A stretch of DNA of 53,611 nt, filler included, from Asterionella formosa (taxonomy: Eukaryota): assembly GCA_002256025.1 (NCBI GenBank). It is 4 parts of 4 records of this genome, joined end to end, with 100 filler letters (N's around TTAATTAATTAA, not from the genome) between each part and the next. Parts side by side here need not be neighbours in the genome. Positions count along the whole stretch, not along the records: positions 40,290 to 53,611 come from NKIB01006791.1; 3 more parts are not named here. One strand, given 5' to 3'. The notes beneath the pieces are model-generated. The model worked only from the letters and a program-made list of their open reading frames with translations. It was not told where the DNA came from and did not search any database. Every line of letters begins with the position of its first letter. The stretch's first letter is position 1. Shown piece by piece: positions 1 to 53,611 of the stretch. The translations under genes were made by a program, and so were the position numbers.

Positions 1-889
1 ATTATGCTGCTCCGCTGCAATATTATGCTGCTTTCACCATATTATAAACTAAAGAGTCGCCAATTCCGATTCACTTATTATTTTTTCTGCTCCGACATAT
101 TTCTTTGATCTCAACTGGCAAATAACAACACATGCAAGAGGAAGATTCACACAGTAGAATTCAGTACACGTAGTAGTAGTTGATGTTGTAGACACATTGT
201 TTAGTCATTGTTGATTGTAGAGATTACAATACTAGCCTACCAGATTAGAAATGAAGCACCGTTGGTCCTCGTTGAGCATCATTGAGCATTGCATGTCTCC
301 GTAGTGAGTCGAAATTGAGATGTGCCACAATGGCCTTCTCCGTTTCGGGGCAGCTACAAAAATCTACAGCGATAACTCTAGCAAGTACAATGTAGAAAAA
401 GAAGGAAAGGATGAGTAGCTGACAACAATTTAATTCGTAAAATTGTTCAGAAACAGCTGTTGCATATTTTAACATTCAATGCATGTCGCCGTCGTGAATA
501 AAAATTGAGATGTGCTGCAATGGCCGTCTCCTTTCCAATTGGCTAGATTACATATATATTCTTAACTGTAGCAATAAAAAATTGGTCGTAAAGGCAAGGG
601 CCAAGGAGATGAGGACTAACTTCATTGAATTCAACCAATCCATAGCTAACCTGTATTTTTCGCAATATTTTGCACTTTTTCTGCACACCACCAGTCAATG
701 CACTCCGAAAATACTTGCTGATGTCTGATTTGACCAATAAAACTCTTAGCAGTTTAGTAGATTGATGCAATGTGGTAGAAAATAATAGCTTTGAGTTTTG
801 GTGCGCCCCTGCTGATGAAATAACTATCATCACGGCATACTAGCACATCCTATGGTAGTAAATCAAAAATGAGAAGTGCCACAATCGCC

Positions 890-3230
890 ATCTGCACATC
901 CTGATGTCTCCTCTGATCAATATATGTTCATTATGAGTATATCGACATTCGCCTGGAAGGCATTGATCTTTTGTACATCGAATACTATGCTGGATAGAAA
1001 TCAGCCTTAAATTGGTGGAGAAAGATGGTTTTGAACACTGGTCATGCAGTAGTCCACAAGAACCGAAATTATACACATCCTGATGACTAATTTGATCAAT
1101 ATATGTTCGTTTTGAGAATTTCGATATTCGGAATGACGGCAATGATCTCGTGTACATTGAATACTTTGCTGGATATAAATCGGCCATATATTGGTGGAGA
1201 AAGATTGTTTGGAATTTTTTAACGACAGCACTGATGTTCAGTCCACAGCAAGCACCGAAATTTTACAAACCTTCCTGATGACCAATTTGATCAATATATG
1301 TTCATTCTGAAAATATCGACATTCACCACGAAGGCATTGATCTCGTGGACATCTAATGCTAAGTTGGATAAAAGTCGGCTTTAAATTGGTGGAGAAAGGT
1401 GGTTTGGAATTTTTGTTGCCACAGCACTGAGCTAGTATGATCAGTGCACGACAGCAAGCACCGAAAATTTACACACCCTCTTGGCTGATGACCAACTCGA
1501 TTTATATATGTTCGTTCTGAGAATATCGATATTCTAAATGAAGGCAATGATCTTGTGTACATCGAATACTATGCTGGATAGAAATCGGCCTTAAATTGGT
1601 GGAGAAAGATGGTTTGGAATTTTTGTTTCAACAGCACTGGCTAATGATGAGTCCACAAGCACAGTAAATTTACACATCCTGATGTCTCCTTTGATCAATA
1701 TATGTCTGTTCTGAGAGTATCGACATTCGAAATGACAGCAGTGATCTCTTGTACATTGAATACTATGTTTGATAAAAATCGGCTTTCAATTGGTGGAAAA
1801 AGGAGGTTTGGAATTCTTGTTGCCACAGCACTTACAATCAGTCCACAAGCACCAAAAATTCACTTCACACCATCCTGATGGCCAATTTAATCAATATGTG
1901 TTTGTTCTGAGAATCTCGACATTTTCCATGAAGACTCTGATCTCTTGTACATCGATAACTTTGCTTGATAGAAATCTGTCTTAAATTGGTGGAGAAAGAT
2001 TTGGAATACTGGTCATGCAGCAGCTCACAAGAACCGAAATTTTACACATCTTGATGAACAATTTGATCAATATATGTTCATTCTGAGAATATCATTATTC
2101 GAAATGACGGCGCTGATCTCGTGTACATCGAATACTATGCTGGATAAAAATTGGTCTTACATTAGTGGAGAAAGATGGTTTGGAATTTTGGCAACCACAG
2201 CACTGATGTTCAGTTCACAGCAAGCACCGAAATTTTGCACACCATCCTGAGGACCAATTTGATCAATATATGGTCATTCTCAGAATATCGCCATTTGCCA
2301 TGACGGCATTGATCTCGCATACATCGAATACTATGCTAGATAGAAATCAGGCTCAAAATGGTGGAGCATGATGGTTTGGAATTTCCGTTGCAACAGCACT
2401 GGTCATGCAGCAGTCCACAGCAAGCTCCGAAATTTTACACACCATCCTGATGACCAATTTGATCAATATATGTTCGTTCTGAGAATATCGATATTCGGAA
2501 TGATGGCACTGATCTCGAGAACCACGAATACTATGCTGGATAAAAATCGGCCTTAAATTGGTGGAGAAGGACGATGGTTTGGAATTTTTGCAACCACAAC
2601 ACTGATGTTCAGTTCACAGCAAGCACCGAAAATTTACACACCATCCTGATGACCAATTTGATCAATATATGTTCATTCTGAGAATGTCAACAATCGCCAT
2701 GACGGCATTGATATCGCGTATGTCTAATACCATGCTAGATAGAAATCAGCCTTAAATGGTGGAGCAAGATGGTTTGGAATTTCCGTTGCGACAGCACTGG
2801 TCATGCAACGGTCCACAGCAAGCACCGAAAATTTACACACCATCCTGATGACCAATTTGATCAATATATGTTTGTTCTGAGAATAACGACATTCGACATG
2901 ATGGCATGGATCTCGTGTACATCCAATACTATTCTAGATAGAAATCAGCCTTGAAATGTCGGAGCAAGATGGTTTGGAATTTTTGTTGCCACAGCACTTA
3001 CAATCAGTCCACAAGCACCGAAAATTTATTTCACATCCTGATGAATAATTTTGAATATTTGTTCTTAGTATATCGACATTCATTATGATGGCATTGATGT
3101 CGTGTACCTCGAATACTATGATTGATAAAAATTAGAATTACATTGGTGGAGAAAGATGGATTGGAATTTTTGTTGCCACAGCACTGATGATAAGTCCACA
3201 AGCATCCGAAAATTTACACATCCGGATGCC
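890..3230. repeat. Tandem satellite array, about 12-13 units of ~177-212 bp
   Basis: Anchor CATCCTGATG(A/T) recurs at ~897, 1076, 1272, 1485, 1675, 1871, 2047, 2243, 2443, 2642, 2841, 3034 and 3218. Shared blocks are TTTGATCAATATATGTTC, CATCGAATACTATGCTGGATA and TTAAATTGGTGGAGAAAGATGGTTTGGAAT. No reading frame stays open across units. Confidence 0.95.
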
Positions 3231-4017
3231 TCGCCTGCTTGTTGATTGGCGTCAGGAGCAGACGAGGGAATGGGAAAACACCAGAACCAACTGGAGTCGC
3301 CATTGTGCAACAAGAAGCAAGGCCCAAGATAAATGGAAAGCAGAGAGCAAACAGGCAATCGGTGTTGCACAGTGGCATGAAAAACAGTGCTGCTTTGCAC
3401 TGCCAACAAGAACTGCAATGTTACAGCTGTGGACAAGGGTAGTAGAGAGAACAGATATTGTAGTTCGGTTGAGGGGAACCTTATTGGGAATAAAGGTTAA
3501 CTACAATATTTTGTACTGTATGGACGAATAAAACCGGTACTAATTGTGTCCATTTATTCATTTATTTAGGCACGAGTGCGATTATTGGACAGCTTTAACG
3601 TACTATAAGATTTGATTGATAATTTTTTTACTATTCTATTGTCGTTTCGAGTACATGGACGTTAGCACTCACGCATGTACCTAATCTGGTGGCTACGCCG
3701 GCATGGTTCGTACGGCGCATGTACGGAGTGCCATACTCAGTTATTAACACAGGTACCTGGTACATATCATGTAGGGAGTGTGTTGAGAACGGACACAAGG
3801 ACAGGTGGCTGATGTGGCTCGTCAGTTTGTCGGATGGTTGGCTCATCCGTCGCTCGTGTAGAAATACAAGCACATCGTGATCTTCCTTGTCCTCCTTGTT
3901 GACACCAATACACTTTTAAGGTCGGCACGTCGCACCCTTGTTTCAATTCATTCCTCAATTTGCATTCTTTCTTTTCTTGTTCATCTGACTCTGTACCCAG
4001 CATCTCGGACGCTGAAG

Positions 4018-4974
4018 ATGACGCAGCGGCCGATGCTACGGAAGCTGACTCTGCTTATGGTAATCTGGAGGCATCAGGGAACAGACGCCTTCAGCCCATT
4101 TGCAGGAAGAACTGCCCAAGTGCATGCAAGATTTTCTATTCGGCCAACACTTGATTCGGTTGATTACAGATCAAAAGCATCATCCTTGCAGCTTAAGCCG
4201 ATAGGAGATGACAATGAATCCGGCGATGATGATCAATGGGAGGATAAGAAGAAAGTAGACGAACTTGGTTTCTTTGACTCTATCAGAACGTGGTTCGGGT
4301 CAGATGAGGGAAGAGATGATATCCAAACCTACACATGGAGTCTGGCATTTGCTCTTCTTCTTCGATTTTTGATTATTGAACCTCGATACATTCCAAGTCT
4401 CTCCATGTATCCAACCTTTGATGTTGGCGACCAGCTGGCAGTGGAAAAAGTTACAAAAAGGATTCGCCCCTTCAGTCGAAAGGAAGTAGTGGTTTTCAAT
4501 CCTCCACAATCCTTCAGAGAGATAATGGAAGGTCAATTTGGAGGTGATCCGACCGGTAAAAGTAGGGAAGCTTTGATCAAGCGCATCGTTGCTATTGAGG
4601 TAAGATACTTTTTGTGTGCTTTTTCGGTTACATGCCGTTGCTTTTTTTTACCACCTTTTCAATTCAAGGAGGTACTGCTGCTCTTGACTCACTTTTCGAT
4701 TGAAACCTTCCAACAGGGTGACACTGTAAGAGTGACCAAGGGGAGCCTTTATATCAATGGAGAAAGGCAAGATGAACCCTTCACAGCTGAGAAGCCCGAG
4801 TACGAGTTTGGCCCGGTGACAGTACCATTGGGAAGTGTACTTGTGCTGGGCGATAACCGAAACCATAGTCTTGATGGACACATTTGGGGTTTTTTGCCAA
4901 AGGAAAATGTTATTGGACGAGCTGTCTTTATCTACTGGCCTCCATGGCGAATGGGTAACAGCGACTTATTCTAG
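4018..4974 (+). CDS. Plastid (thylakoidal) signal peptidase I, S26A family; exons 4018-4599 and 4717-4974
   Basis: Motifs IPSLSMYPTF (catalytic Ser), LIKRIVA (catalytic Lys) and LGDNRNHSLDGH. Signal peptide followed by TDAF-SPF, an ASAFAP-like cleavage site. GT..AG intron 4600-4716 (117 bp) restores VAIE|GDTV. Confidence 0.92.
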   Translation: MTQRPMLRKLTLLMVIWRHQGTDAFSPFAGRTAQVHARFSIRPTLDSVDYRSKASSLQLKPIGDDNESGDDDQWEDKKKVDELGFFDSIRTWFGSDEGRDDIQTYTWSLAFALLLRFLIIEPRYIPSLSMYPTFDVGDQLAVEKVTKRIRPFSRKEVVVFNPPQSFREIMEGQFGGDPTGKSREALIKRIVAIEVRYFLCAFSVTCRCFFLPPFQFKEVLLLLTHFSIETFQQGDTVRVTKGSLYINGERQDEPFTAEKPEYEFGPVTVPLGSVLVLGDNRNHSLDGHIWGFLPKENVIGRAVFIYWPPWRMGNSDLF

Positions 4975-5222
4975 CCAATATAAATTATGCAACACATAAT
5001 GGAGAAACGCTAGACTAATCACTTCACTGTATCGCTGGACCTGACTACGTATAGATATACTTTTCGATTGTTGCAATCATTCCCTTCAACAGCACAAAAA
5101 CAAGTTATCATTTTTAAGTGGACAAATAGCACGTGACTACCGTTCGTCCCCCAAGTCCAGCTACCGGTATGCAGATCGAGTTGGTCTATAATGTATGTTA
5201 CACTTCTGCTGCAATAATGTGC

Positions 5223-5849
5223 TTAGAAGACACCAAGTCCATCACCGAAAGGGGAAACATGTCCTGCAGCGTATTGCTCGTACATTGTCTGTCCGGTCAT
5301 GCATTCAACAACCATATTTCCGAGAATTCCCATCATAGCAGCACGACCGTTGTTGAGCTCAACATTGAGCTTGCGGGCCTTCTCCTCAGGGTTCTTGACA
5401 TTGTCACCAAACCATCCGACTCCATAGTCTCCGTCGTACTTGGAAGCAGGCATCCATGCGAGCTCAACAAGGGCGAAGAAGAAAAGGATCTGGAGGAGTC
5501 CGGCGGTAGGGACAGCACGAATTCCGTCAACTCCAGTGGGAAGATCAGAAAACTTCAGGTTCTCAGATGGAGACAGGTATCCATCGAAAGTGATGTGGTT
5601 GTTGTGGACAATGCATCCGACAATGGCCATCATGGCAATACGTCCGTGCTTGCGCTCGACAGCGCGACGACGCTCGAACGATTCTGGCTCGTTGTCCAAC
5701 CATCCGAGAGGATCGAAGACACCAAGTGGGGCAGTAGCTCCGAGCTCAAGCTCGTTGACCATATTCAAGGCGGTGGCAGCCTTGCTGGTCTGGACAGGGG
5801 CGAAAGCGGCGGCAGAGCCGACGAAAAGAGCAGCGATGGCGAGCTTCAT
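5223..5849 (-). CDS. Lhcf: Fucoxanthin-chlorophyll a/c binding protein (Lhcf family), 208 aa
   Basis: SAAAFAP presequence, LGVFDPLG, ERKHGRIAMMA (helix 1) and ELNNGRAAMMG (helix 3). Start at MKLAIAAL (ATG 5849). Intronless. Confidence 0.97.
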   Translation of the reverse strand: MKLAIAALFVGSAAAFAPVQTSKAATALNMVNELELGATAPLGVFDPLGWLDNEPESFERRRAVERKHGRIAMMAIVGCIVHNNHITFDGYLSPSENLKFSDLPTGVDGIRAVPTAGLLQILFFFALVELAWMPASKYDGDYGVGWFGDNVKNPEEKARKLNVELNNGRAAMMGILGNMVVECMTGQTMYEQYAAGHVSPFGDGLGVF

Positions 5850-6333
5850 GGTGAGGAATATATTTGATGGACAAAAGTGATCCAAAGAAGCACTGGCGTC
5901 AGTTTGGGCAGGCAGGGATCCTATACATAGTAGGGGTAAACGATTAGTATTCCAACGAGCAAGATTATACCGAAGTAAAGATACACCTCAAGTTGTAAAC
6001 CCTAGCCTTGTGGCTCCGGGCAAGTATTTTTTAGAAAAAACTTGGGTGAAATAACGAAATGCACACCCACTGTTTCGGAGAAAACACACCGAAAAGCGCG
6101 CCAAAAACCGAAAATCAGCCAGCCAAAGAAACGTTTTCAATTCTTGGTTAGCAATTTGTGTCATGTTCTCAACGCTGAAAAGGAATATCAAATAATCTCG
6201 ATTTCACGATGAGGTGGTCCTGAATCTGGACTCTGCCATTAGACATTGGCTTTTATCGACAACGTAATTTGAAGCAGGTATCTGGTAATTATTACAACTA
6301 CCTTTCAGATGCAAGGAAGGTAAGATCAATGGA
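5850..6333. promoter_or_regulatory. Putative bidirectional promoter between Lhcf (minus) and the RTEL1-like gene (plus)
   Basis: 484 bp between divergent start codons. Initiator-like TCACTT on the minus strand at ~5875-5880, just upstream of the Lhcf ATG. Positional inference only. Confidence 0.45.
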
Positions 6334-9300
6334 ATGAAGGCAATCAGACGAACAAAAGATCACGATGGAAAACCAACAGGCAACTCGAGATCTGCTGCAG
6401 CGTCGAGAATACCGACTGGTTCATCACAAGCGACCGCCGTTGATATCAAAGGCACGACAATTCACTTCCCCTTTCAGCCGTACAAATGCCAAGTGGATTA
6501 CATGGAGAAGGTATTGGACGCCTTGAACAATTCGGAAAACGCCTTGCTAGAATCCCCCACTGGAACAGGGAAGACCCTATGCCTCCTCTGTTCTACTTTG
6601 GCATGGCAACGAGAACAAGGACGAGCAATACTTCAAGCGACGCAAGTGACTCAGCATACTTCTGGTGAATCCAACAAAGCTCCCACAGTTCCTACAATAA
6701 TCTATGCTTCCAGAACCCATTCTCAATTATCTCAAGTAGTACGAGAGCTTCGCAATACTCGCTATCGGCCAAAGCATGCGGTGCTTGGTTCCCGCCAGCA
6801 AATGTGTGTTCATCCAAAAGTTAAAACCGCAACAGCCACTGCTGCAGATATTAATCATGATTGCAACCGCCTTGGGAAGGACCGGAAATGCAGATTCAGG
6901 AACAACCTAGATGGATTTAAGGCACCAAGCAATGAGCATGGAGCAAGTCATGATACGCAGCCAGTTTTGGACATGGAAGATTTGGTTTCCATGGGAGAAT
7001 CCTCAAAAGTTTGCCCTTTCTACTACACACGATCCTTGGTAGAGGATGCTGAATTGATTCTGGTGCCGTACAACTATCTCTTTGATAAGGATGCAAGAGA
7101 GTCCACAATGGCTGAGGTGGAATGGGATAATGCAATCGTCATTTTTGATGAAGCTCACAACTTGGAGAGTTTCGCTAGTGAATCTGCATCCTTTGATCTA
7201 TCGAGCGTCGATATTGGTGTCTGTATAATGGAATGCACAAAGGTGGGAAATTACTTACAAGCTCAACCAGAATTGCAAGATCGGGTAAGTTTAGACAATC
7301 TCATCCGTTTAAAGGCTCTGTTTCTCAATTTCGAGGAGTACATTCTACAAAAGATAAGGAGTGACAGAAATGTCTTCAGTGGTGACTTTATGATAGAAAT
7401 ATTCAAGGAAGGAGCATCCATTAATCATGCAAATCACTCTATCTTTGTTAACGAGGTCTGCAAAGTCTCTGACTTACTTATGGACATGCGTTCAAGTAGT
7501 AGCAAAGGCCCAACAAAATTGGAGTTTTTTGTTGGCTGTGTCAAAAGAGTCTTCGGGGAAATCTCAGAAGGTCGATGCATGGCAAAATCTCGAGCATATC
7601 GAGTACACATAACCTCCAAACCCCCTGGCAATAACGGAATGGGCCGTGTCATATCCTATTGGTGCTTTGCGCCGTCGTTGGCCATGCAAGAGCTTTCCAA
7701 TTTGAATATTCGATCCATTATAGTAACGTCAGGTACGCTGTCGCCATTGCAGAGCTATGGCATGGAACTTGGTTTGAACTTCAAGGAGCAATTAGAGAAC
7801 CCGCATATTATTTCTGATAATCAGATACACGTTCGCGTGGTGGGGCAAGGAGTCAGCGGGAAGAATTTGTCGAGTTCCTATGAGCGACGAAGTGATAGCG
7901 AATATGTCACCGAGCTTGGCAACACCTTGGTCGCCCTTGCTCGAATCGTCCCTGCTGGAATGCTTGTCTTCTTTCCAAGTTACAGTGTCATGGACTCGTG
8001 CGTTGAAGGATGGGGAGGACCAGCTTCGCAACGAAAGAATTTCGATAAGAACAAGAAAGAACAAAACAAGTTTTTTGCGGCGAGACAGAGTAAGAAAGGA
8101 AGCAGTGGTCAGTTTTCTTTTCCGTTCGCTCCGAACTACTATAATTCGTCCGATCCCAACGGGAGTATGACACCGTGGAAGCGGTTGCTCTGCCAAAAGT
8201 CTATAATCCTCGAACCCAAATCCACCACAGACCTTCCTGAGGCCATCGCAGACTTTCATCGCTACCTTAATCAATCGAAGTCGACTGGCTGTATTTTGAT
8301 GGGTGTATGTCGAGGAAAGATCAGTGAAGGAATTGATTTTGCTCACGATATGTGTCGTGCCGTTATCGTCACCGGCCTGCCATTTGCTCCATTCTTGGAT
8401 CCAAAGGTAAAGCTGAAACGCGAATACCTTGATGGCATCAGGGCTTTTCAGAGTCTCAAGGCTTCGAATGATGGTGGATTCGGAGGAGGCGACGGTAGTG
8501 CGCTCAGTGCGTCTATTTCAATGTCTGGAGCGGAATGGTATTCGCAGCAAGCACATCGTGCCGTCAACCAAGCGATCGGTCGAGTCATCCGTAATAAGCT
8601 CGATTATGGCGCTGTACTATTGCTCGATTCAAGATTCGGAGATCCAAAAAACACTGATGGGCTAAGTTTGTGGGTAAGAACGCGCGTACAACATGACCAT
8701 GGGTTTGGAAAAGCTATCGGGGGTCTTGTAAAGTTCTACAAAGACGCGAAGTGTACCGTTGATGAGAGAGAAAAGCTCGCCAACGCCGCATCTCGAGCGC
8801 CAAGCGGCATCCGCTTGGCATACGAAGACGATCTGTTTCCCACCACGGTGAAGAATCCTACTGAAGCATTTGAAGCATCAGTGACCAAGATTACCGTAGT
8901 CCAAATGGCTGCGGTCAGCAACAAGGAGATCAACCGAACGGACGACCGTGTCGCATCCAAACGAGGAGTCACAACCGATGACGTCGTTGAAAACGGGTAT
9001 GTTCCCTCAAATCGAGTAATTGTTAGCTATGATCTCCGCGACGCGGATGGTCGTGAACAATCCACGGAAGATCTGCCGCACTCGACCGTGTCAAGGGCGG
9101 AACCGTTGAATCCGGTAGGGTTAGGTGCTCTCTACTCGGCAAAAGCACCATCGTCAACCCGAAATTTATCTTCAGGTAGAAGAAAACAGGATGCAAGAGG
9201 GGGTGGAACCAGTGCTTGGGAGTCGCTCCAATCATCGGCTGCATCATTCGACTCTCAGCGGGATTGCAATACAGCTGAAAAGGGTTCGATAAGGGAACTG

Positions 9301-10765
9301 GATCCATATACGAATGCCCAGGAGTTAGCTCCTCAGCGAACTGTAACAAACGCCAAAGCTTTTTTCGACTTGGTGAAAGGCGCATTATCGTCGGAAGACT
9401 TCGGATCGATTCGCAAAGCCATTGTCGAAATGAAGGCACATGGTGATAAGAAAGATGTTAGATCTTATCTAAGATCAGCAAGTGAAATTATTTCACTGAT
9501 TGTTAAGCAGGATAATTTCGAGACAAGGCAGGGTTCCTCGGAAGCAGGAATGCTCTCTCTTTTTTTTTCATTGCTCCCGAAAGCCTACCGCGAAGATGCT
9601 CAGAAAATTGGCGTCAAGAAGCAACTGGTAATGTCAAATTTCGGTCAAAGTTGCACCTCATTCATCAGAAACATCGAAGAAAGAAAGAAACTGGTCATCG
9701 AAGTCCGTTTGCTGTTGAATGCCATCTATTGCAGCACCGAAGACACACCTGGGGTAATGGCCAGATCGTCGTTTGCTCAAATATGCAAACCTGTAGTTGC
9801 ACTGATCCTTGAGGTGGAAATCGATGCCAACGTCAAAGTAGCGTCCACGAAACAGTTGGTCGAATCCTTCCGGTGGCTACTCCCCTTGTCACTCCATGGA
9901 ACACTAGATGGCATCCTTCGAGATGTTCAGGCGGCCAAGAACATGAAACGAATGAAGGCGGCCGACAAAGCTAGAACTGGTGAAGGTGTAGTCAACACTG
10001 CTAGATTCGTGGTTCCATCAGCGAAGAAACCTCGGCAAGAGGACAAGAAGAATGAAATGCCCGAGGAAATTGAAAATCGACATATGCTAGTAGCTGGATT
10101 AAAGATGGCTCAAGATATTCAGCGGCAGAAACGCGAGCAACTTGAAGCAAGTAAACTTGCAACCAAGAGTCAATATGGGCAGTTGAAGCGAAAGGTAGAT
10201 CTAGCTTTGGCGTCAGTCTCCACGAGCAGTCTCCCAAGCCTAAACCGAGATAAGCTTGCGAATAGTCTCAAGGTCGCTGGCACTGACCATTTTGTGAAAA
10301 ATGTCAGACCTATACCGTCAGAGTCAAAATTAGTTGGCTACAACGCCCCGGAAGGACTAACTTGTCTTGTTTGTGACAGCACGATACGTTTGGTAAGCTA
10401 GTTTAGGGTTATTGAGAAGTCAACAGGAGCCCATGATGTTGTTGTCACGTACAATGTTTTGATATACTTGCGCTTTGACCTAACACTATGTGTTCTCCCG
10501 GTTTCGCAAGCCTTTCATGGCAGATTGCAGACATCTGGCTTGCGCAAGCTGCTGGTCACAATGGCTACAGAAATCATCTACGTGCCCAAAATGCAGATCA
10601 ACTGTAACATCAGGACAGTTAACAAGAGTGGTCTTCAATACACAATTAGACGGATCAAAAGTCCCTACTCTTTCGCAGCTCTGCAAAACGACTCCATCAA
10701 CGAACGACGACGAGCAATCAAGTGATGACGAGCTCGAAGTTATCGGAAGTCAGTATCTAGAATAG
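6334..10765 (+). CDS. RTEL1: RTEL1-like Fe-S DEAH helicase (XPD/RAD3 family) with harmonin-N-like region and C-terminal C3HC4 RING; exons 6334-10392 and 10511-10765
   Basis: Q motif FPFQPYKCQ, Walker A ESPTGTGKT, YASRTHSQLSQ, Fe-S cysteines (MCVHP..DC..KC..CPFY), FDEAHN, CRGKISEGIDF and QAIGRVIR. Intron 10393-10510 joins CLVC..|PFMADCRHLACASC..CPKC into one RING. RTEL1 is preferred over FANCJ from the helical C-terminal region (AKAFFDLVKGALSSEDF). Confidence 0.85.
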
Positions 10766-10997
10766 CAGTACATGACTCCTTTTTATTGCTAGGAACAGCG
10801 AAATAGGTGAGGAGTAACAGTACAAAAACTTGAAACATCAAAAACCTATTTTGAGTTTATAAACATCTTAGCTGGGGATTTGAACCGTATTTTAACATGT
10901 GCTGGTGGGTGGTTCAAGCCTGTTTGTAGCAATAATGTGGTAATGGTAGCGAAGAATACAATGTGCAGGGGAGTATGTTGGAAAGAGGCGCATTTCT

Positions 10998-11890
10998 CTA
11001 AGCGTTTGCTTGCGCAGTCTGCATGACAGGTCCTGTAGCCTCGAATCGAGACTCTCTTTCAGCAATCGAAGTCATGGCCATTGCAAGGAGGTTCAAGCGA
11101 CTGGTCCCCCCAGTTTCTACTTTAATCGCGGGTTTCGCGATAGGAAGTCTCACCGAAACAGGAGAATGACTCATGGGGACAATATGCGTTGCATGAGTCC
11201 ACACACTGGGCATGAAGTAATGTGCGTTCGTGTTGGTTCCCGACGTCAAAGTGACGATGGTGGGATAGGCCGGAGCTTGAATAAGCATTCGCGGGGGCGA
11301 TTGTGACGGCGAGACAGCACGAGACTGCTGCGTATATTCCGTTTGCTGAGGGAGAACGACCTTCAATGATGCATGCTCAGTGTGCACCCCATTGTCGTTG
11401 CGCTTTCGAGCAGCAGCTGAATTACACTTTCGGAGGTCAGAGAGTGTGTCTACTCGACCTCTAGCAAAAGAGGGATGTGCAAACATATCAGTATCGGGGC
11501 CTCTGCGAACTTTCGAGAAGCCGTACTGTGAATATAAACAGTGTTTGGTTAGAATGAAAAAATGTGAACACTTAACAAAACAAAGAACTCAACATTAAAA
11601 GGGGCACTTACTAGGTTCAAATTTCTTTGAAAAGAGCTAAACTTGGATGTTCGAAAGTACTTGGGAAGGATATGGGACGAAAAGAGGGCGACATCAAGGA
11701 TGCGGAAAGCATTGCCAGTGTCTGACCATACGATGATATTCAAGTGGTTGGCATCTGTCGACATCAGCTTGCTTTCACTCTCGAGCATTTCGAATAGTCG
11801 ACGAGGAAACTGTTGGGGCACTCCCCGCTTCCCAGTGCGCGGGTAAGACAAGGAGGTCAATGTCTCGGGAGATTCGGGCATTACAGTCAT
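10998..11890 (-). CDS. HSF: Heat-shock-factor (HSF) family transcription factor, ~268 aa; exons 11890-11612 and 11525-10998
   Basis: HSF DNA-binding domain FPRRLFEML..IVWSDTGNAF..LPKYFRTSKFSSFQRNLNL|YGFSK..FAHPSFARG. An 86-bp GT-AG intron (11526-11611) lies at the conserved LNL/YGF position. Confidence 0.93.
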
Positions 11891-13173
11891 GATTGCTGAT
11901 TGACTTCGAAAGGTATGTTGAGGAATTTATGTGCGTAAGCGAAACAATCGATAAGAAAGGCTTCTATAATAAATAATTCCATATAGTGGTTGGTATGCTG
12001 CAATGTGTATGATATACTCGAGTGGTACCAGGTATGATGCCAAAAAAGGAAGCAACGGGTGTACAAAACGGGAGGGTGCACATGGTACCTGCTACTCACC
12101 AATGGCACCAAATGACGAGAAAGTCCCATCAACGAGGTATGTACCACTTCCTACCAGGTCCTGGAAGTACAATCGAATCCTTTCATCCTACAAACGTCAA
12201 TACGTCATGTAATGCGGGTACCTGGTCCCTGGTACCAGGTACCTGGTATTTTGTGTGATAGTACCTGGTACCTGGTACCAGTTACTCTCAAGGTCCCTTG
12301 ACATGACACCAGTTGGGTGTCAAATGGTGTCTCTGCCTTGTGAGGTGATGTGGCTGTTTGTCAAACAATACGAGTACAAAACAATTAGCTGACTATTTTA
12401 GAAGTGACACACAGCAGAAGAATCCGAAAGCCGCCTCGACAGATTTTGAAAATACAAATCAGTAAATTCCAATATTTTTATTGGCTGGTAACCGTATCAG
12501 TCAGAACGCAATCCGATTTGCGACACATATGTGCGTATTTCACATGATTGCATGACGCCTGATCGACTTCAGAGAAACGCTTGGTTAACGGCATCAATCA
12601 GCGTTCAGCAAATCAGATTTGGAATCCGAGCTGACATGAATGATGTAATTTGTGCATGTGAACAACTCAGAATTCGAATGGGTTCCGAAGCCTTGACGCC
12701 CATTTCTCACGTCTCAGCGAATAGAATGCAGCATCTGTTTCCAAAGAAGTGCGTAGCTTGGTTTGTCTTTAGGGGTACATTTTGCGACGATGACCACCAT
12801 ATCCAATCATTTCCAATTTGGCATTCTCATCACTGGATTACTATTCCGATCTGCACGAGAGTGACATATGGCACCTCTTGCATACGACATCGCAGTTTCT
12901 CATTTGAAAAATTGTTACTTATTAAGTTTCCTGCATTTCAACCCTAGATGAGAGGAAGGGTTAAAAAGGTAATATTGAGTGATGGTTTGGTAAATATAGT
13001 ACTCCCACTTGTATACAGACCTTTTCTAAATAAAAATCAAAGGGTGAATTAAATTATCCTGTGGCATTGATAAGTTCGAACAGATTGAGTCATGTGCATA
13101 GAGACATACCCGCTATCTAATTACAGGTACCTGGTACCCTGGTACCGTACCTGGTCCGGGAATTCATGACAAG

Positions 13174-13326
13174 GTACTAGGCAATAGAATACGAAAATGA
13201 TCACGTGACTACGACATATACTAGCTGTGCAAATACTTTGGCTTTGGCTGTCACTACCGGTACATTCTACTATCACTCGTCCAGCACGTACTAGGCAATA
13301 GAATACGAAAATGATCACGTGACTAC
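13174..13326. repeat. Direct repeat (39-bp identical core, 114-bp period) at the contig end
   Basis: GTACTAGGCAATAGAATACGAAAATGATCACGTGACTAC occurs at 13174 and 13288. The contig ends ~10 bp later. Confidence 0.85.
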
Positions 13327-13336
13327 AACAAATACA

Positions 13337-50221: not shown

Positions 50222-53200
50222 TCACACATATTCACCTGCAAACTCATTCTTCACCCATTTGATAATACCAGCATGGTCACAAACAAGGACCAGATGTTTC
50301 TTCCATTCAGAATGCTTGTCTTTCTGAGCCTTTTTAGCAATTAATTCATATGATGCTCCAACAATTTCAGTTAGCTTTTCCCTATCCAATTCAAGAATAG
50401 GAGTATGTTGAGTTGCACTTCTCCCTAAAAGGAGTTCATCAGTCCTTGCGATGAGCTCTTTTGTAAGTGGATCACTTATCATATCCATGACAAACTTCTC
50501 AATTGATTCGATTGGACCATGCAGACCAGTGGTAACTTTACTAGCAGCAGCTGCAACTTTAAGGAGGAATATAGCACATTTTATGGCAGGTGCAACACTT
50601 GTCACCCATTGCTTGGTAACCTTGGTAGTAATACATGCTTCTGTTACAACATTAAATGAATGCTGACAAACAAAGAATATCTGCACTTCAGTTTTCACCA
50701 TGCTTCTTGGCCACATCCAGATTGGGGCCCCTTTATTACTGGATGGTACTATGTAGACAATTCTGGGACACACTTCCTTTACTCCAGCAGCAAAAATCGC
50801 AAGGGCCTTTGTCATTCGTGACTCTTGATGAGAGATCTTCTTCAGAATCTCTTGTTGATACCGATAAAGTTTTGACCATTTGTCATGTTCGATTTGTTCC
50901 TTCAGGTGAAGTTTATACAGATTGCTGGTCAAGATTTGGCTCTTGTATATGTCCTCATTAGAAAATAGCCTGTCACAACCAAGGACTGGGCACTGAATGG
51001 TCATCTCACCAAGAAGCTTATGAACATGATTCTCAAAACAATGTTTGCATGTGAAATGATCTTTGCAAATGGAAACAGAAGAAGAAAATTTGGCGCACAA
51101 GACACACTGTTCAGTGCTTTCATTCAAGCTTGCTGTTCCGGTTTTTCCACAGGATGCTGTGGGGCTTCCAGCAATATGATATGTTTGACTTACAAGTCGA
51201 CCCATTTCTTCAACCAATTCAATAGTCTTTGGCCTCTTCGTGCGCTTAGTCTGAATGCAACGAATGGCTAATGAGCACACAGAGGACAAAATTCCATCAT
51301 CCCATTCATCTGCAAGAGGATCAGCATCCTCTTCCAATGAGGACCCTTCGCACTCTTCAATGTAGCGATCATAGAAATCTCCCATCTGCCCATTTTGGAG
51401 GCAGCCTGTCACAAGCTCAATCATGACAATGCCAAACGAGTAAACATCACAGCATGCTTCAAATGTCTTTTTCCCATGCGAATACCATGGACATATGTAG
51501 CCAAGCGTCCCAAAGACTCCACCATTTGATGCATTCTGAAGTGACATCGGAATCGCACTGGTTGAAATTGAGTCATCCACAGGCACAAACTTGCCTAGGC
51601 CACAATCAATCAGTTTGGCAGTATAGTTCTGTTGAAGGCAGATATTAGCCGACTTGATGTCGCGATGAAACAGAATGAAGTTGTCACTTTTCTCAGTATG
51701 GAGGCAGTGGATGGCACGAATAATGTCAAACATGATTCGAAGTCGGATCTCACTCGAGAGGCTTGCTCTGCTTCGTTCACTTGCATAAAATTTATCAAGA
51801 GAACCCTTGGATGTAAACTCATACACCAGGTATTGAGCAGGCGTATCAGAGGACAAATAATAGCCATACAAAGATACGATATGGGGGTGTCGGAACCTCT
51901 TTAATGCCTGAAACAGTAAAAGAGAAGAATGAGAAACATAAAGTCTTGTCAAGACATGATGCACTATTTGATACTACACATGAGCTCACCTCCAATTCAA
52001 TTTTAAAACTCTTGCTGATTTCCTGTAACGTATCTTTCTCAACAGCAACATTGAAAAGAAGACATTTAACAGCAAAATACCGATTGTCAAACTTGCCTTT
52101 GTAGACAGCACCAAAAGCTCCTTCACCTAGTTTCAAGGCTTCATCAAAGTTGTTTGTACAACTATTAATGAATTCTACAGGAAGCTCAATTGGTATAGAA
52201 TTCACATTGTCCATAACTGCCTTCATTTTCGACCGGCCTATGGAAATGGGATCAGTGGAACTGCTACCGCTTGGTGTTGGAGTTGTTGGGTAAGAGAGAC
52301 CCATTGTATTTGTATTTGATGCTGTTGCTGTTGCTGTTACTTTTATTGTTGTTTTTGTTGTTGAGTTTGGCTGACTTGTGATGGCTGATTGTTCATGGGC
52401 CTTCTTTGCATCAACAAGTCTTTGAATTTCATTTATTAGATTGGCACCAATTGAGTTATCCTTGGATGAATGAGTCTTCATCGCAGAAATAATCGTTGTG
52501 ATACCTCCTGCTTCAGCAATCGTCACCTTGTTGTTGTCATTATTTTCAGCCAAGTTCTGAAGTGCTCCACAACCAAAGTATTGAACATTAGCATTGGCTG
52601 AATGAGTCTTCATCGCAGACAGAATCGTAGTGATACCACCTGCTTCAACAATCATCTCCTTGTTGTTTTCATTCATAGCCAAGTTCTGAAGTGCTCCACA
52701 ACCATAGTCTTGCACATCCGCATTAGATGAATGATTCTTCATCGCAGACAGAATCATAGTGATCCCACCTCCTTCAGAAATCATCACCTTGTTGTTGTCA
52801 TTATTCTCAGCCAAATTCTGAAGTGCTCCACAACCGTTTTGTTGAACATTTGCAATGAATGAATGAGTCTTCATCGCAAAGAGAATCGTAGTGATACCTC
52901 CTGCTTCAGCAATCGTCACCTGGTTGTTTTCATTCACAGCCAAGATATTAAGTGCTGCACAACAAACATCTTGAACATAAGCAATGGATGAATGATTCTT
53001 CATTGAAGACAGAATCGTAGTGATGCCTCCAGCTTCGGCAATCGTCACCTTGTTGTTGTCGTTGTTCTCAGCCAAGTTCTGAAGTACTCCACAACCACAG
53101 TCTTGCAAATTAGCATTGGATGAATGATTCTTCATCGCAGAAAGAATCGTAGTGATGCCTCCTGCTTAAGCAATCGTCACCTTGTTGTTGTCATTATTCC

Positions 53201-53611
53201 CAGCCAAGTTCTGAAGTGCTCCACAACCATTTTGTTGAACATTTGCAATGGATGAATGATTCTTCATTGCAGACAAAATCGTAGTGATACCTCCTGCTTC
53301 AGCAATCGCAACCTTGTCGTTGTCATTATTCCCAGCCAAGTTCCGAAGTACTCCACAACCAAAGTGCTGAACCTTGGCATTTGATGAATGAGTCTTCATC
53401 GCAGACAGAATCGTAGTTATACCTCCTGCTTCAGAAATCGTCACCTGGTTGTTGTCATTATTCCCAACCAAGTTTTTAAGTGCCCCACAACCAAAGTCTT
53501 GCACATCTACATTGGATAAGTGAGTGTTCATGGCAGACAGAATCGTAGTTATACCTCCTGCTTCAGCAATGGTCACCCTGTTGTTTTCATTCAAAGCCAA
53601 GTTCTGAAGTG
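50222..53611 (-). CDS. ARM-repeat / IRAK-Pelle-like kinase / RING-like / Roco-COR-like multidomain protein; 5' end missing; one in-frame TAA at 53166-53168; exons >53611-51990 and 51907-50222
   Basis: At least 9 ARM-like repeats of 43-44 aa. Kinase motifs CTNNFDEALKLGEGAFGAVYKG, FAVK, FKIELE|ALKRFRHPHIVSLYG, HRDIKSAN, DCGLGK, GTLGY, DVYSFGIVMIELVTG. Zn finger CVLC..C.DH..CKHC..CPVLGC. Tail CPRIVYIVP..FFVCQHS..WVTSVAP..WV. The 82-bp GT-AG intron 51908-51989 is frame-consistent. Confidence 0.85.
52470..53611 (-). repeat. Coding tandem repeat, 129/132-bp units (ARM repeats), at least 9 copies
   Basis: AATCGTAGTGATACCTCCTGCTTCAGCAATCG recurs at 129-132 bp spacing (e.g. ~52888, 53017, 53149, 53281). 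The contig ends inside the array. Confidence 0.97.

What the first reader, a model, noticed from the sequence alone, without database searches (positions are those of the whole stretch)
52470..53611. Near-identical ARM repeats with a hypervariable residue pair
Seen: the scaffold GGITTILSAMKxHS...(V/L)Q-xx-GCGALxNLA is nearly constant, even at DNA level. The two residues after Q read DF, HF, QN, DC, DV, QN, DY, YF, with secondary variation at L-x-N-L (K,R,Q,Q,N,Q,Q,Q) and just before VQ. The block IANVQQNGCGALQNLA occurs twice, suggesting unit shuffling. Established: ARM helix 3 forms the ligand groove, and high internal conservation with a few diversified sites marks fungal NLR repeats (HET-E WD40) and TALE RVDs. 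Inference: a recombination-diversified, modular recognition code.
Basis: partly seen in the sequence, partly recalled or inferred. Interest (0 to 1): 0.8.

Follow-up and report, generated by a model that had tools for sequence, protein, structure and literature searches.

The report
Diversifying armadillo-repeat sensor kinase in alga
This is a cut-off, stop-interrupted copy of a large gene family in a freshwater alga (probably a diatom) whose armadillo repeats keep their scaffold but diversify the surface that binds partners, the pattern of fast-evolving recognition proteins; what they recognise is untested.

Summary
The array is one of at least 87 in this genome (602 units, 59 contigs). Across 471 unique units the 'pair' (helix-3 positions 29/30) is not the hot spot: positions 36 and 40 are (about 2-3 times the synonymous rate in three tests). 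Positions 26, 29, 30 and 33 are modestly raised; core positions are purified. Five of these sites are those that engineers randomise in designed armadillo peptide binders. Recombination is evident: near-free reassortment within units, out-of-register matches to a paralogue, and a junction where this ARM array sits on the cap of an LRR-kinase. Best reading: an intracellular, recombination-diversified sensor-kinase family, working like fungal high-conservation NLR repeats but without a NOD domain. A TALE-like two-residue code is not supported. No ligand or immune role is shown. The scan noted this family before on other DNA of the same genome.

The parts
52464..53611 (-). ARM array: partial unit at the contig end, 8 full 43/44-aa units (53558-52509) and a half unit; the 5' part of the gene lies off the contig
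53166..53168 (-). In-frame TAA near the end of unit 3; the paralogue C9846 has a sense codon at the aligned place
52390..52463 (-). Junction and cap helix of the type that ends the LRR arrays of paralogous LRR-kinases: the ARM array stops in mid-unit and LRR-cap sequence begins near 52460
   Evidence: before the junction the DNA matches ARM loci, after it LRR-kinase loci; identity to LRR-kinase C5148 is 20/54 before and 47/66 after
52215..52389 (-). Thr/Ser/Pro-rich linker (boundaries approximate)
51990..52214 (-). Kinase N-lobe exon: Gly-rich loop, catalytic Lys motif, alphaC Glu
51908..51989 (-). 82-nt GT-AG intron; its removal joins the two kinase frames without a stop
   Evidence: depth dips over this bin in RNA run X8 but not in three DNA runs (weak, depths include paralogues)
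51209..51907 (-). Kinase C-lobe of IRAK/Pelle/RLK type (HRD motif intact, DCG in place of DFG)
   Evidence: Pfam Pkinase E 5.5e-23; homologue list
50968..51106 (-). Cys/His-rich segment, RING-like by motif only (no Pfam hit)
   Evidence: sequence; Cys pattern shared with a Fragilaria crotonensis kinase; no Pfam match
50222..50905 (-). Long helix plus unnamed alpha/beta C-terminal domain, then the stop codon
   Evidence: 140 relatives at E<=0.001; model pLDDT 80; no clear solved-structure match

Best explanation
The locus is one member of a large, fast-turning family of cytosolic sensor kinases of a freshwater alga, probably a diatom. SHOWN: a solenoid of homogenised ARM units is fused to an IRAK/Pelle-type kinase, a Cys-rich segment and an unnamed C-terminal domain. 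The repeat module is exchangeable (ARM or LRR in this genome, ankyrin or LRR in relatives). Units recombine within and between arrays. Core residues are under purifying selection while one face of helix 3 (positions 36 and 40 strongly; 26, 29, 30, 33 weakly) changes faster than synonymous sites. FROM ESTABLISHED KNOWLEDGE: that face is the ARM peptide-binding groove. INFERRED: each array presents a different groove that binds a foreign or foreign-modified polypeptide; binding clusters or releases the kinase, which signals, possibly to defence or cell death; new specificities arise over evolutionary time by point mutation plus gene conversion and unequal crossing-over, with many dead copies as a by-product. 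This copy is itself interrupted by a stop, so it is either a dead allele or makes at most a five-unit protein from an internal Met.
For: 602 units, 59 contigs, 87 arrays in the loci fetched (lower bounds). Entropy is highest at 36 (3.62 bits) and 40 (3.28), then 26 and 29. piN/piS 2.31 [2.13-2.53] at 36 and 2.12 [1.88-2.41] at 40, bootstrap over contigs; independent close pairs give 2.2 and 2.5, P 2e-11 and 4e-14. Against fourfold sites 3.0 and 3.0, unchanged in sign when CpG-type changes are dropped. Codon model omega about 3 at both, core sites 0.06-0.3. The signal holds in arrays with no stop or frameshift (3.3 and 3.1, 323 units). Designed-armadillo pocket positions 26, 29, 30, 33, 36 (residue numbers in PMC12202725 converted with PMC4756613) all fall among the top 7 of 33 sites (P 9e-5; 0.003 against an assumed 17 surface sites). 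Recombination: 97% of 543 site pairs show all four gametes, and linkage decays with distance (rho -0.16, permutation P 0.0004); window units 3 and 8 are closest to out-of-register units of paralogue C9846 (4 and 6 differences, against 12 and 12 for the colinear units); ARM-on-LRR-cap junction. 24 of 87 arrays carry a stop or frameshift. A lake polyA run holds near-identical pieces of the gene.
Against: No ligand, no infection-linked expression and no phenotype. Recombination breaks the tree assumption and can inflate omega; with site-specific synonymous rates the support falls (36: P 0.02; 40: P 0.0009; 29: 0.10; 30: 0.11). By the more conservative Nei-Gojobori pair test only 36 and 40 are clear, and 26, 29, 30, 33 lie at 1.0-1.4. 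Off-groove sites 6, 15 and one loop residue also reach 1.4-1.7; for 6 and 15 the local synonymous rate is raised too. Four-gamete failure can also come from repeated mutation. Global omega is 0.78 and position 37, the Asn that grips the peptide backbone in canonical ARM proteins (recalled), is only 66% conserved. There is no NOD/STAND or known death domain in this gene. The copy in the window is broken.
Confidence: 0.55

Rival explanations
1. Relaxed expansion: the family spreads by duplication and conversion with little function; exposed residues drift, and the excess at 36 and 40 is an artefact of recombination or of multi-nucleotide changes.
For: Global omega 0.78; many surface sites near 1; 24 of 87 arrays broken; with free synonymous rates the fit assigns a doubled dS to 36 and 40.
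Against: The pair tests do not use a tree and treat background and focal sites alike, yet 36 and 40 stay at 2-3. Neighbouring codons 35, 38, 39 and 41 show no raised synonymous rate. The excess sits on the groove face rather than on loop and helix-2 surface sites such as 21-23 (0.6-1.0 in open arrays). The core is strongly purified.
Confidence: 0.2
2. Diversifying recognition of another kind: self/non-self or mating recognition, or substrate-selecting adaptors for endogenous proteins with the Cys-rich segment acting as a ubiquitin ligase.
For: The same molecular signature is expected; fungal repeats of this kind serve allorecognition (PMC4986451, passages); a RING-like motif follows the kinase.
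Against: High gene death and an open-ended vocabulary fit an external, changing target better than endogenous substrates (inference). The RING-like segment has no Pfam support.
Confidence: 0.15
3. TALE-like cipher: the two residues after Q form a small code, one unit reading one residue or base, and unit order spells the target.
For: In the window the pair is among the most variable sites (7 different pairs in 8 units); 29 and 30 are pocket positions in designed binders; 29 and 30 are weakly associated (excess mutual information 0.25 bits).
Against: Family-wide HY, EY, YY and EN make up 353 of 602 pairs; position 30 or 29 is the most variable site in only 3 and 3 of 41 arrays, against 14 and 11 for 36 and 40 (ties counted); omega at 30 is not above 1; in designed binders one pocket is built from two neighbouring repeats (PMC11228518, passages), so units are not independent.
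Confidence: 0.06
4. Assembly artefact: short-read chimeras create the mosaic arrays.
For: Fragmented assembly (15,436 contigs); exact tracts of 95-120 nt shared with C9846; the array ends at a contig end.
Against: Unitigs from other studies match window stretches across unit borders: 52905-53187 with 2 differences and 52104-52520 (across the ARM/LRR-cap junction) with no substitution in RNA run X8; 52146-52520 in DNA runs X2 and X6. Codon-level diversity at 36 and 40 does not depend on unit order.
Confidence: 0.04

Closest known systems
Fungal NLRs with high-internal-conservation repeats (HET-D/HET-E WD40; ANK and TPR types; PMC4986451, passages seen)
   Same: Homogenised repeats, repeat shuffling within and between genes, a few positively selected positions per unit on the binding face.
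   Different: ARM repeats (that survey reports WD, ANK and TPR types); no NACHT or NB-ARC domain; the output is a kinase; units here are 77-91% alike, around or below that paper's 85% cut-off.
Ectocarpus LRR-ROCO, LRR-kinase and NB-ARC-TPR candidate receptors (PMC3341825, passages seen)
   Same: Stramenopile; shuffled repeats, positive selection on the concave face, frequent pseudogenes; function also untested.
   Different: There each repeat is one exon; here the array is intron-free. ARM scaffold (the word armadillo has 0 occurrences in that paper); no ROC-COR GTPase.
Designed armadillo repeat proteins (dArmRP; PMC11228518, PMC12202725, PMC4756613, passages seen)
   Same: Near-identical ARM units (model TM-score 0.84-0.88 to 5mfi and 4rv1); the randomised pocket positions 26, 29, 30, 33, 36 are naturally variable here.
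   Different: Natural; two extra residues in the H2-H3 loop; small residue at 33 and large at 36, the reverse of dArmRP; position 40 is as variable as 36; no ligand known.
IRAK/Pelle/RLK-type kinases of diatoms, e.g. Fragilaria crotonensis 'serine/threonine kinase' (P0077, P0096)
   Same: Kinase, Cys-rich segment and C-terminal domain align over the whole length (31% identity, E 6e-91); some carry N-terminal repeats (ankyrin).
   Different: Those are annotation only; the ARM-array form and its selection pattern were not found described in searches.
TALE repeats (RVD code; recalled)
   Same: Near-constant scaffold with a few variable residues per unit.
   Different: Different fold; at least six variable positions over three helical turns; no small vocabulary.

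Membership tests
Armadillo repeat | Three-helix unit of about 42 residues forming a superhelix | tested here: met
   Pfam Arm E 2e-13; model with regular H1-H2-H3, pLDDT 98.2; Foldseek TM 0.84-0.88 to designed ARM structures
Armadillo repeat | Peptide bound in the helix-3 groove through Asn37 | not testable with these tools
   Asn37 is present in 66% of 602 units; no ligand known
IRAK/Pelle/RLK kinase | Kinase domain whose nearest named relatives are RLK/IRAK-type, catalytic residues intact | tested here: met
   (Gly loop, Lys, alphaC Glu, HRD; DCG for DFG); no tree was built, so the clade rests on the hit list
IRAK/Pelle/RLK kinase | Catalytic activity | not testable with these tools
   needs an assay
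NLR / STAND receptor | Central NACHT or NB-ARC domain | tested here: not met
   No such Pfam hit in the three frames of the gene that lie in the window; the near-identical paralogue C9846 shows only a short Cys/His cassette before the array
High-internal-conservation diversifying repeats (HET-E type) | Repeat exchange within and between loci | tested here: met
High-internal-conservation diversifying repeats (HET-E type) | Positive selection at a few binding-face positions | tested here: met
   36 and 40; no recombination-aware model was available
High-internal-conservation diversifying repeats (HET-E type) | Repeat-number polymorphism among strains at one locus | tested here: inconclusive
   Only short unitigs; pieces laid from other studies were near-identical, none spans the array
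High-internal-conservation diversifying repeats (HET-E type) | Allele-specific recognition leading to cell death | not testable with these tools
   needs experiments
TALE-like code | Variation confined to two adjacent residues with a small vocabulary | tested here: not met
ROCO (LRRK2, Ectocarpus) | ROC-COR GTPase tandem | tested here: not met
   No Roc or COR Pfam hit; similarity to LRRK2 is confined to its ARM region
RING ubiquitin ligase | Canonical RING zinc-ligand pattern | tested here: inconclusive
   Cys/His-rich motif present, no Pfam hit at E<=0.01

The most novel reading that the evidence does not exclude
A natural armadillo 'binder library': a unicellular alga keeps hundreds of interchangeable ARM modules whose groove residues act as semi-independent pockets, so that re-ordering modules re-programs which extended peptide (for example a parasite or virus protein) is read and fires a kinase. 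It would be the natural counterpart of designed modular armadillo binders and a molecular basis for strain-specific parasite resistance in diatoms.
Probability: 0.15. Interest if true: 0.9.

Novelty: new variant of a known kind. Interest (0 to 1): 0.6.

Why it matters
Strain-specific susceptibility and a hypersensitive response to chytrids are reported for freshwater diatoms, and the review that collects them names no receptor in the passages I saw (PMC10643281). This family gives concrete candidate genes and named residues to test. It extends the 'conserved scaffold plus diversified face' strategy to the armadillo fold and to a kinase output without a NOD domain. For protein engineers, 471 distinct natural units that vary at the designed-binder pocket positions are a ready pool of pocket chemistry.

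Tried and rejected
Two-residue code: rejected as the main variable element. CpG hypermutability as the cause at 36 and 40: the excess stays in transversions alone (3.5 and 4.4). End-of-alignment or regional hot spot: flanking codons are not raised. C9846 as the allele of this locus: the 3' flanks do not match beyond the gene, so it is treated as a paralogue; its 1.3% divergence over about 910 columns against 13% in the array and 11-14% or more in the distal kinase can be read as array turnover or as one recent conversion tract, and I cannot tell which. Fold of the C-terminal domain: Foldseek gave no match at E<=0.001, VIA-align matched only the first helix (best Z 5.7), the Atlas gave no usable hit; this does not show a new fold, and the globular part was not modelled alone. 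Solvent exposure could not be computed because model coordinates are not returned; groove assignment rests on the alignment register and the papers. Whether the stop codon is present in wild populations could not be read: RNA unitig 30 of X8 spans it with 2 differences whose places were not among the rows shown. The sequence look-up of earlier findings returned nothing. Literature searches (listings only) showed no description of such a diatom ARM family; one search returned nothing; the library lacks most subscription papers, and no supplements were read.

Full report
1. Observation. The last 1.15 kb of the window is a minus-strand array of period 129/132 nt. Translation gives eight full units, a partial unit at the window end and a half unit. 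Units differ by 9-23 of 99 core bases and 13 of 33 core residues are invariant, so 'near-identical' means 77-91%. An in-frame TAA lies at 53168-53166, and the window end is the end of contig C6791, so the 5' part of the gene is missing.

2. The gene. Downstream the frame continues through a Thr/Pro linker into a kinase N-lobe, an 82-nt GT-AG intron (51989-51908) and a long exon with the kinase C-lobe, a Cys/His-rich segment and a C-terminal domain; after splicing the frame from 53165 is open for 953 residues. Pfam finds ARM and kinase families only. The best named full-length relatives are Fragilaria crotonensis kinases, followed by plant RLK and IRAK-type kinase domains. Runs that hold the stretch are labelled algal, lake or freshwater. 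A freshwater diatom is therefore inferred, not shown. The C-terminal 227 residues have 140 relatives; of 28 longer ones scanned, 18 carry a kinase domain, 11 ankyrin repeats, 1 LRRs and 1 Kelch repeats, some in combination. Its model (pLDDT 80) has no clear solved match.

3. The family. A DNA search of the own genome gave 96 matches from 40 of 220 candidates scored; a kinase search gave 84. In the 89 loci fetched I found 602 units on 59 contigs, in 87 arrays of 1-21 units, 24 of them with a stop or frameshift. Pattern searches list further contigs that I did not fetch, so these are lower bounds. Of 30 kinase N-lobe hits, the 900 bases upstream were classed by motif count as ARM in 8, LRR in 7, both in 5 and neither or too short in 10. 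In other organisms similar ARM arrays are joined to kinase plus MLKL-N, ADP-ribosyltransferase, DUF4062 or U-box domains (13 of 53 hits scanned).

4. Which sites vary. I number by the designed-armadillo scheme; helix 3 aligns without gaps to the designed repeat OR497, and the model places H3 at positions 25-39 with pLDDT 98. Over all 602 units entropy is 3.62 bits at 36, 3.28 at 40, 2.81 at 26, 2.60 at 29, 2.56 at a loop residue, 2.43 at 15, 2.19 at 30 and 2.16 at 33. In 41 arrays of six or more units, 36 or 40 is the most variable site 25 times and 29 or 30 six times (ties counted).

5. Selection. After dropping 1 unit with N or short length, 115 low-scoring or stop-bearing units and 15 exact duplicates, 471 units remained. 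(a) All-pairs piN over pooled piS: 36 = 2.31, 40 = 2.12, 29 = 1.72, 26 = 1.48, 33 = 1.44, 30 = 1.02, core 0.05-0.2, with bootstrap over contigs. (b) Independent close pairs chosen without the focal codon: 36 = 2.2, 40 = 2.5 (P below 1e-10); 15, 26, 33, 29 = 1.4-1.5 (P 0.004-0.02, uncorrected); 30 = 1.2, not significant; at the tighter distance only 36 and 40 are significant. (c) First and second codon positions against fourfold sites: 36 and 40 = 3.0, 26 = 1.9, 33, 15, 29 = 1.7, 30 = 1.6; transversions alone give 3.5 and 4.4; this background is slightly low because it needs identical first two bases. (d) A grid codon model on a FastTree tree of 462 units: omega 3.0 at 36 and 40, 1.7 at 26, 33, 6 and 15, 1.4 at 29, 1.2 at 30; with site-specific dS, P = 0.0009 (40), 0.02 (36), 3e-7 (33), 0.025 (26), 0.10 (29), 0.11 (30). 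The tree is unreliable under recombination. (e) The pattern holds in stop-free arrays. Conclusion: diversifying selection at 36 and 40 is well supported, at 26/29/33 moderately, at 30 weakly.

6. Structural meaning. PMC12202725 (passages) lists the seven library residues of 5AEI as 155, 159, 162, 194, 197, 198, 201; PMC4756613 (passages) gives Glu156/Glu198 as position 30 and Trp159/Trp201 as 33 for the same design, which converts them to 29, 33, 36 and 26, 29, 30, 33; this agrees with the X5=X1, X7=X2 equivalences in PMC11228518 (passages). I assume both papers share the numbering. All five positions are among the top seven in test (c). One caution: PMC4756613 lists position 36 (Gly in that design) among inter-repeat contact residues, so large residues there may also tune curvature. 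PMC10684580 (passages) places peptide-induced shifts mostly on helix 3.

7. Recombination. Linkage among 34 variable bases is low and falls with distance (r2 0.031 within 10 nt, 0.008 beyond 50 nt; P 0.0004); 97% of pairs show four gametes; a unit's nearest neighbour is in its own array 19% of the time against 1.5% expected. Paralogue C9846 differs from the window by 12 of about 910 columns from the last unit through the intron, but by 123 of 914 in the array interior, and two window units match out-of-register units best. Paralogues such as C8875 and C14003 share first and last units but differ in number and order. The array in the window ends in mid-unit and passes into the cap helix of the LRR-kinase paralogues near 52460: an ARM array sits where an LRR array stands in its relatives. 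The direction of that swap is inferred from the truncated ARM unit.

8. Other samples. Of 24 runs listed I laid 4. All are unitigs. A lake polyA run (X8) holds 52104-52520, 52905-53187 and 53281-53412 with 0, 2 and 1 substitutions, and two DNA runs of other studies hold 52146-52520. The junction and parts of the unit order are therefore real and shared between populations, which argues against an assembly chimera and against rapid somatic change. Transcription is likely but not proven, since RNA libraries can hold DNA.

9. Mechanism and verdict. Shown: architecture, family size, recombination, groove-face diversification. Inferred: ligand binding, kinase activation, defence role. The system works like fungal high-conservation NLR repeats (PMC4986451, passages) and Ectocarpus shuffled LRR/TPR receptors (PMC3341825, passages), but it is not an NLR, ROCO or TALE. 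Hypersensitive death and genotype-specific chytrid susceptibility in freshwater diatoms (PMC10643281, passages) offer a plausible target, not evidence. Earlier notes of this scan describe the same family on other pieces of this genome; I read them after reaching my reading and do not count them as support. I rate it a new variant of a known kind, interest 0.6.

Noticed in passing
window 51660-51160 against L031 (C9846): Differences between the two near-identical paralogues jump from about 1% to 11% or more right at the kinase activation segment, mostly changing residues; possibly a conversion border or diversification of substrate specificity.
   Followed up: partly
L031:400-560 (approx.), also P0011, P0012, L006, L042: A short N-terminal cassette with a C-x2-H ... 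C-x2-C pattern and basic residues precedes many arrays; no Pfam hit in P0012; possibly a zinc-binding targeting module.
   Followed up: no
L046, L047, L050, L053, L061: Mixed genes in which ARM arrays with their own cap run into LRR arrays and kinases in varying order.
   Followed up: partly
G000:C14434 (L069, L070); C9292 (L048); C3835 (L007, L009); C1217 (L053): Tandem duplication of whole multi-array blocks; C14434 holds 50 units, one array of 20.
   Followed up: no
window 1051-3220: A separate tandem array of period about 199-210 nt (9 copies) on another contig of the window.
   Followed up: no
window 52303-52319: 6-nt in-frame length variants of the Thr/Ala-rich linker in three runs from other studies.
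   Followed up: no
P0002, P0005, P0007, P0013, P0015: Very similar ARM arrays in other eukaryotes (including Salpingoeca rosetta) are fused to MLKL-N plus kinase, ADP-ribosyltransferase or DUF4062 domains, hinting that this ARM subtype is reused in defence-type architectures.
   Followed up: partly
whole window: The window is a concatenation of several small contigs (1-13336 is C6774; the last 13.3 kb is C6791), so neighbours across those borders are not true neighbours.
   Followed up: yes
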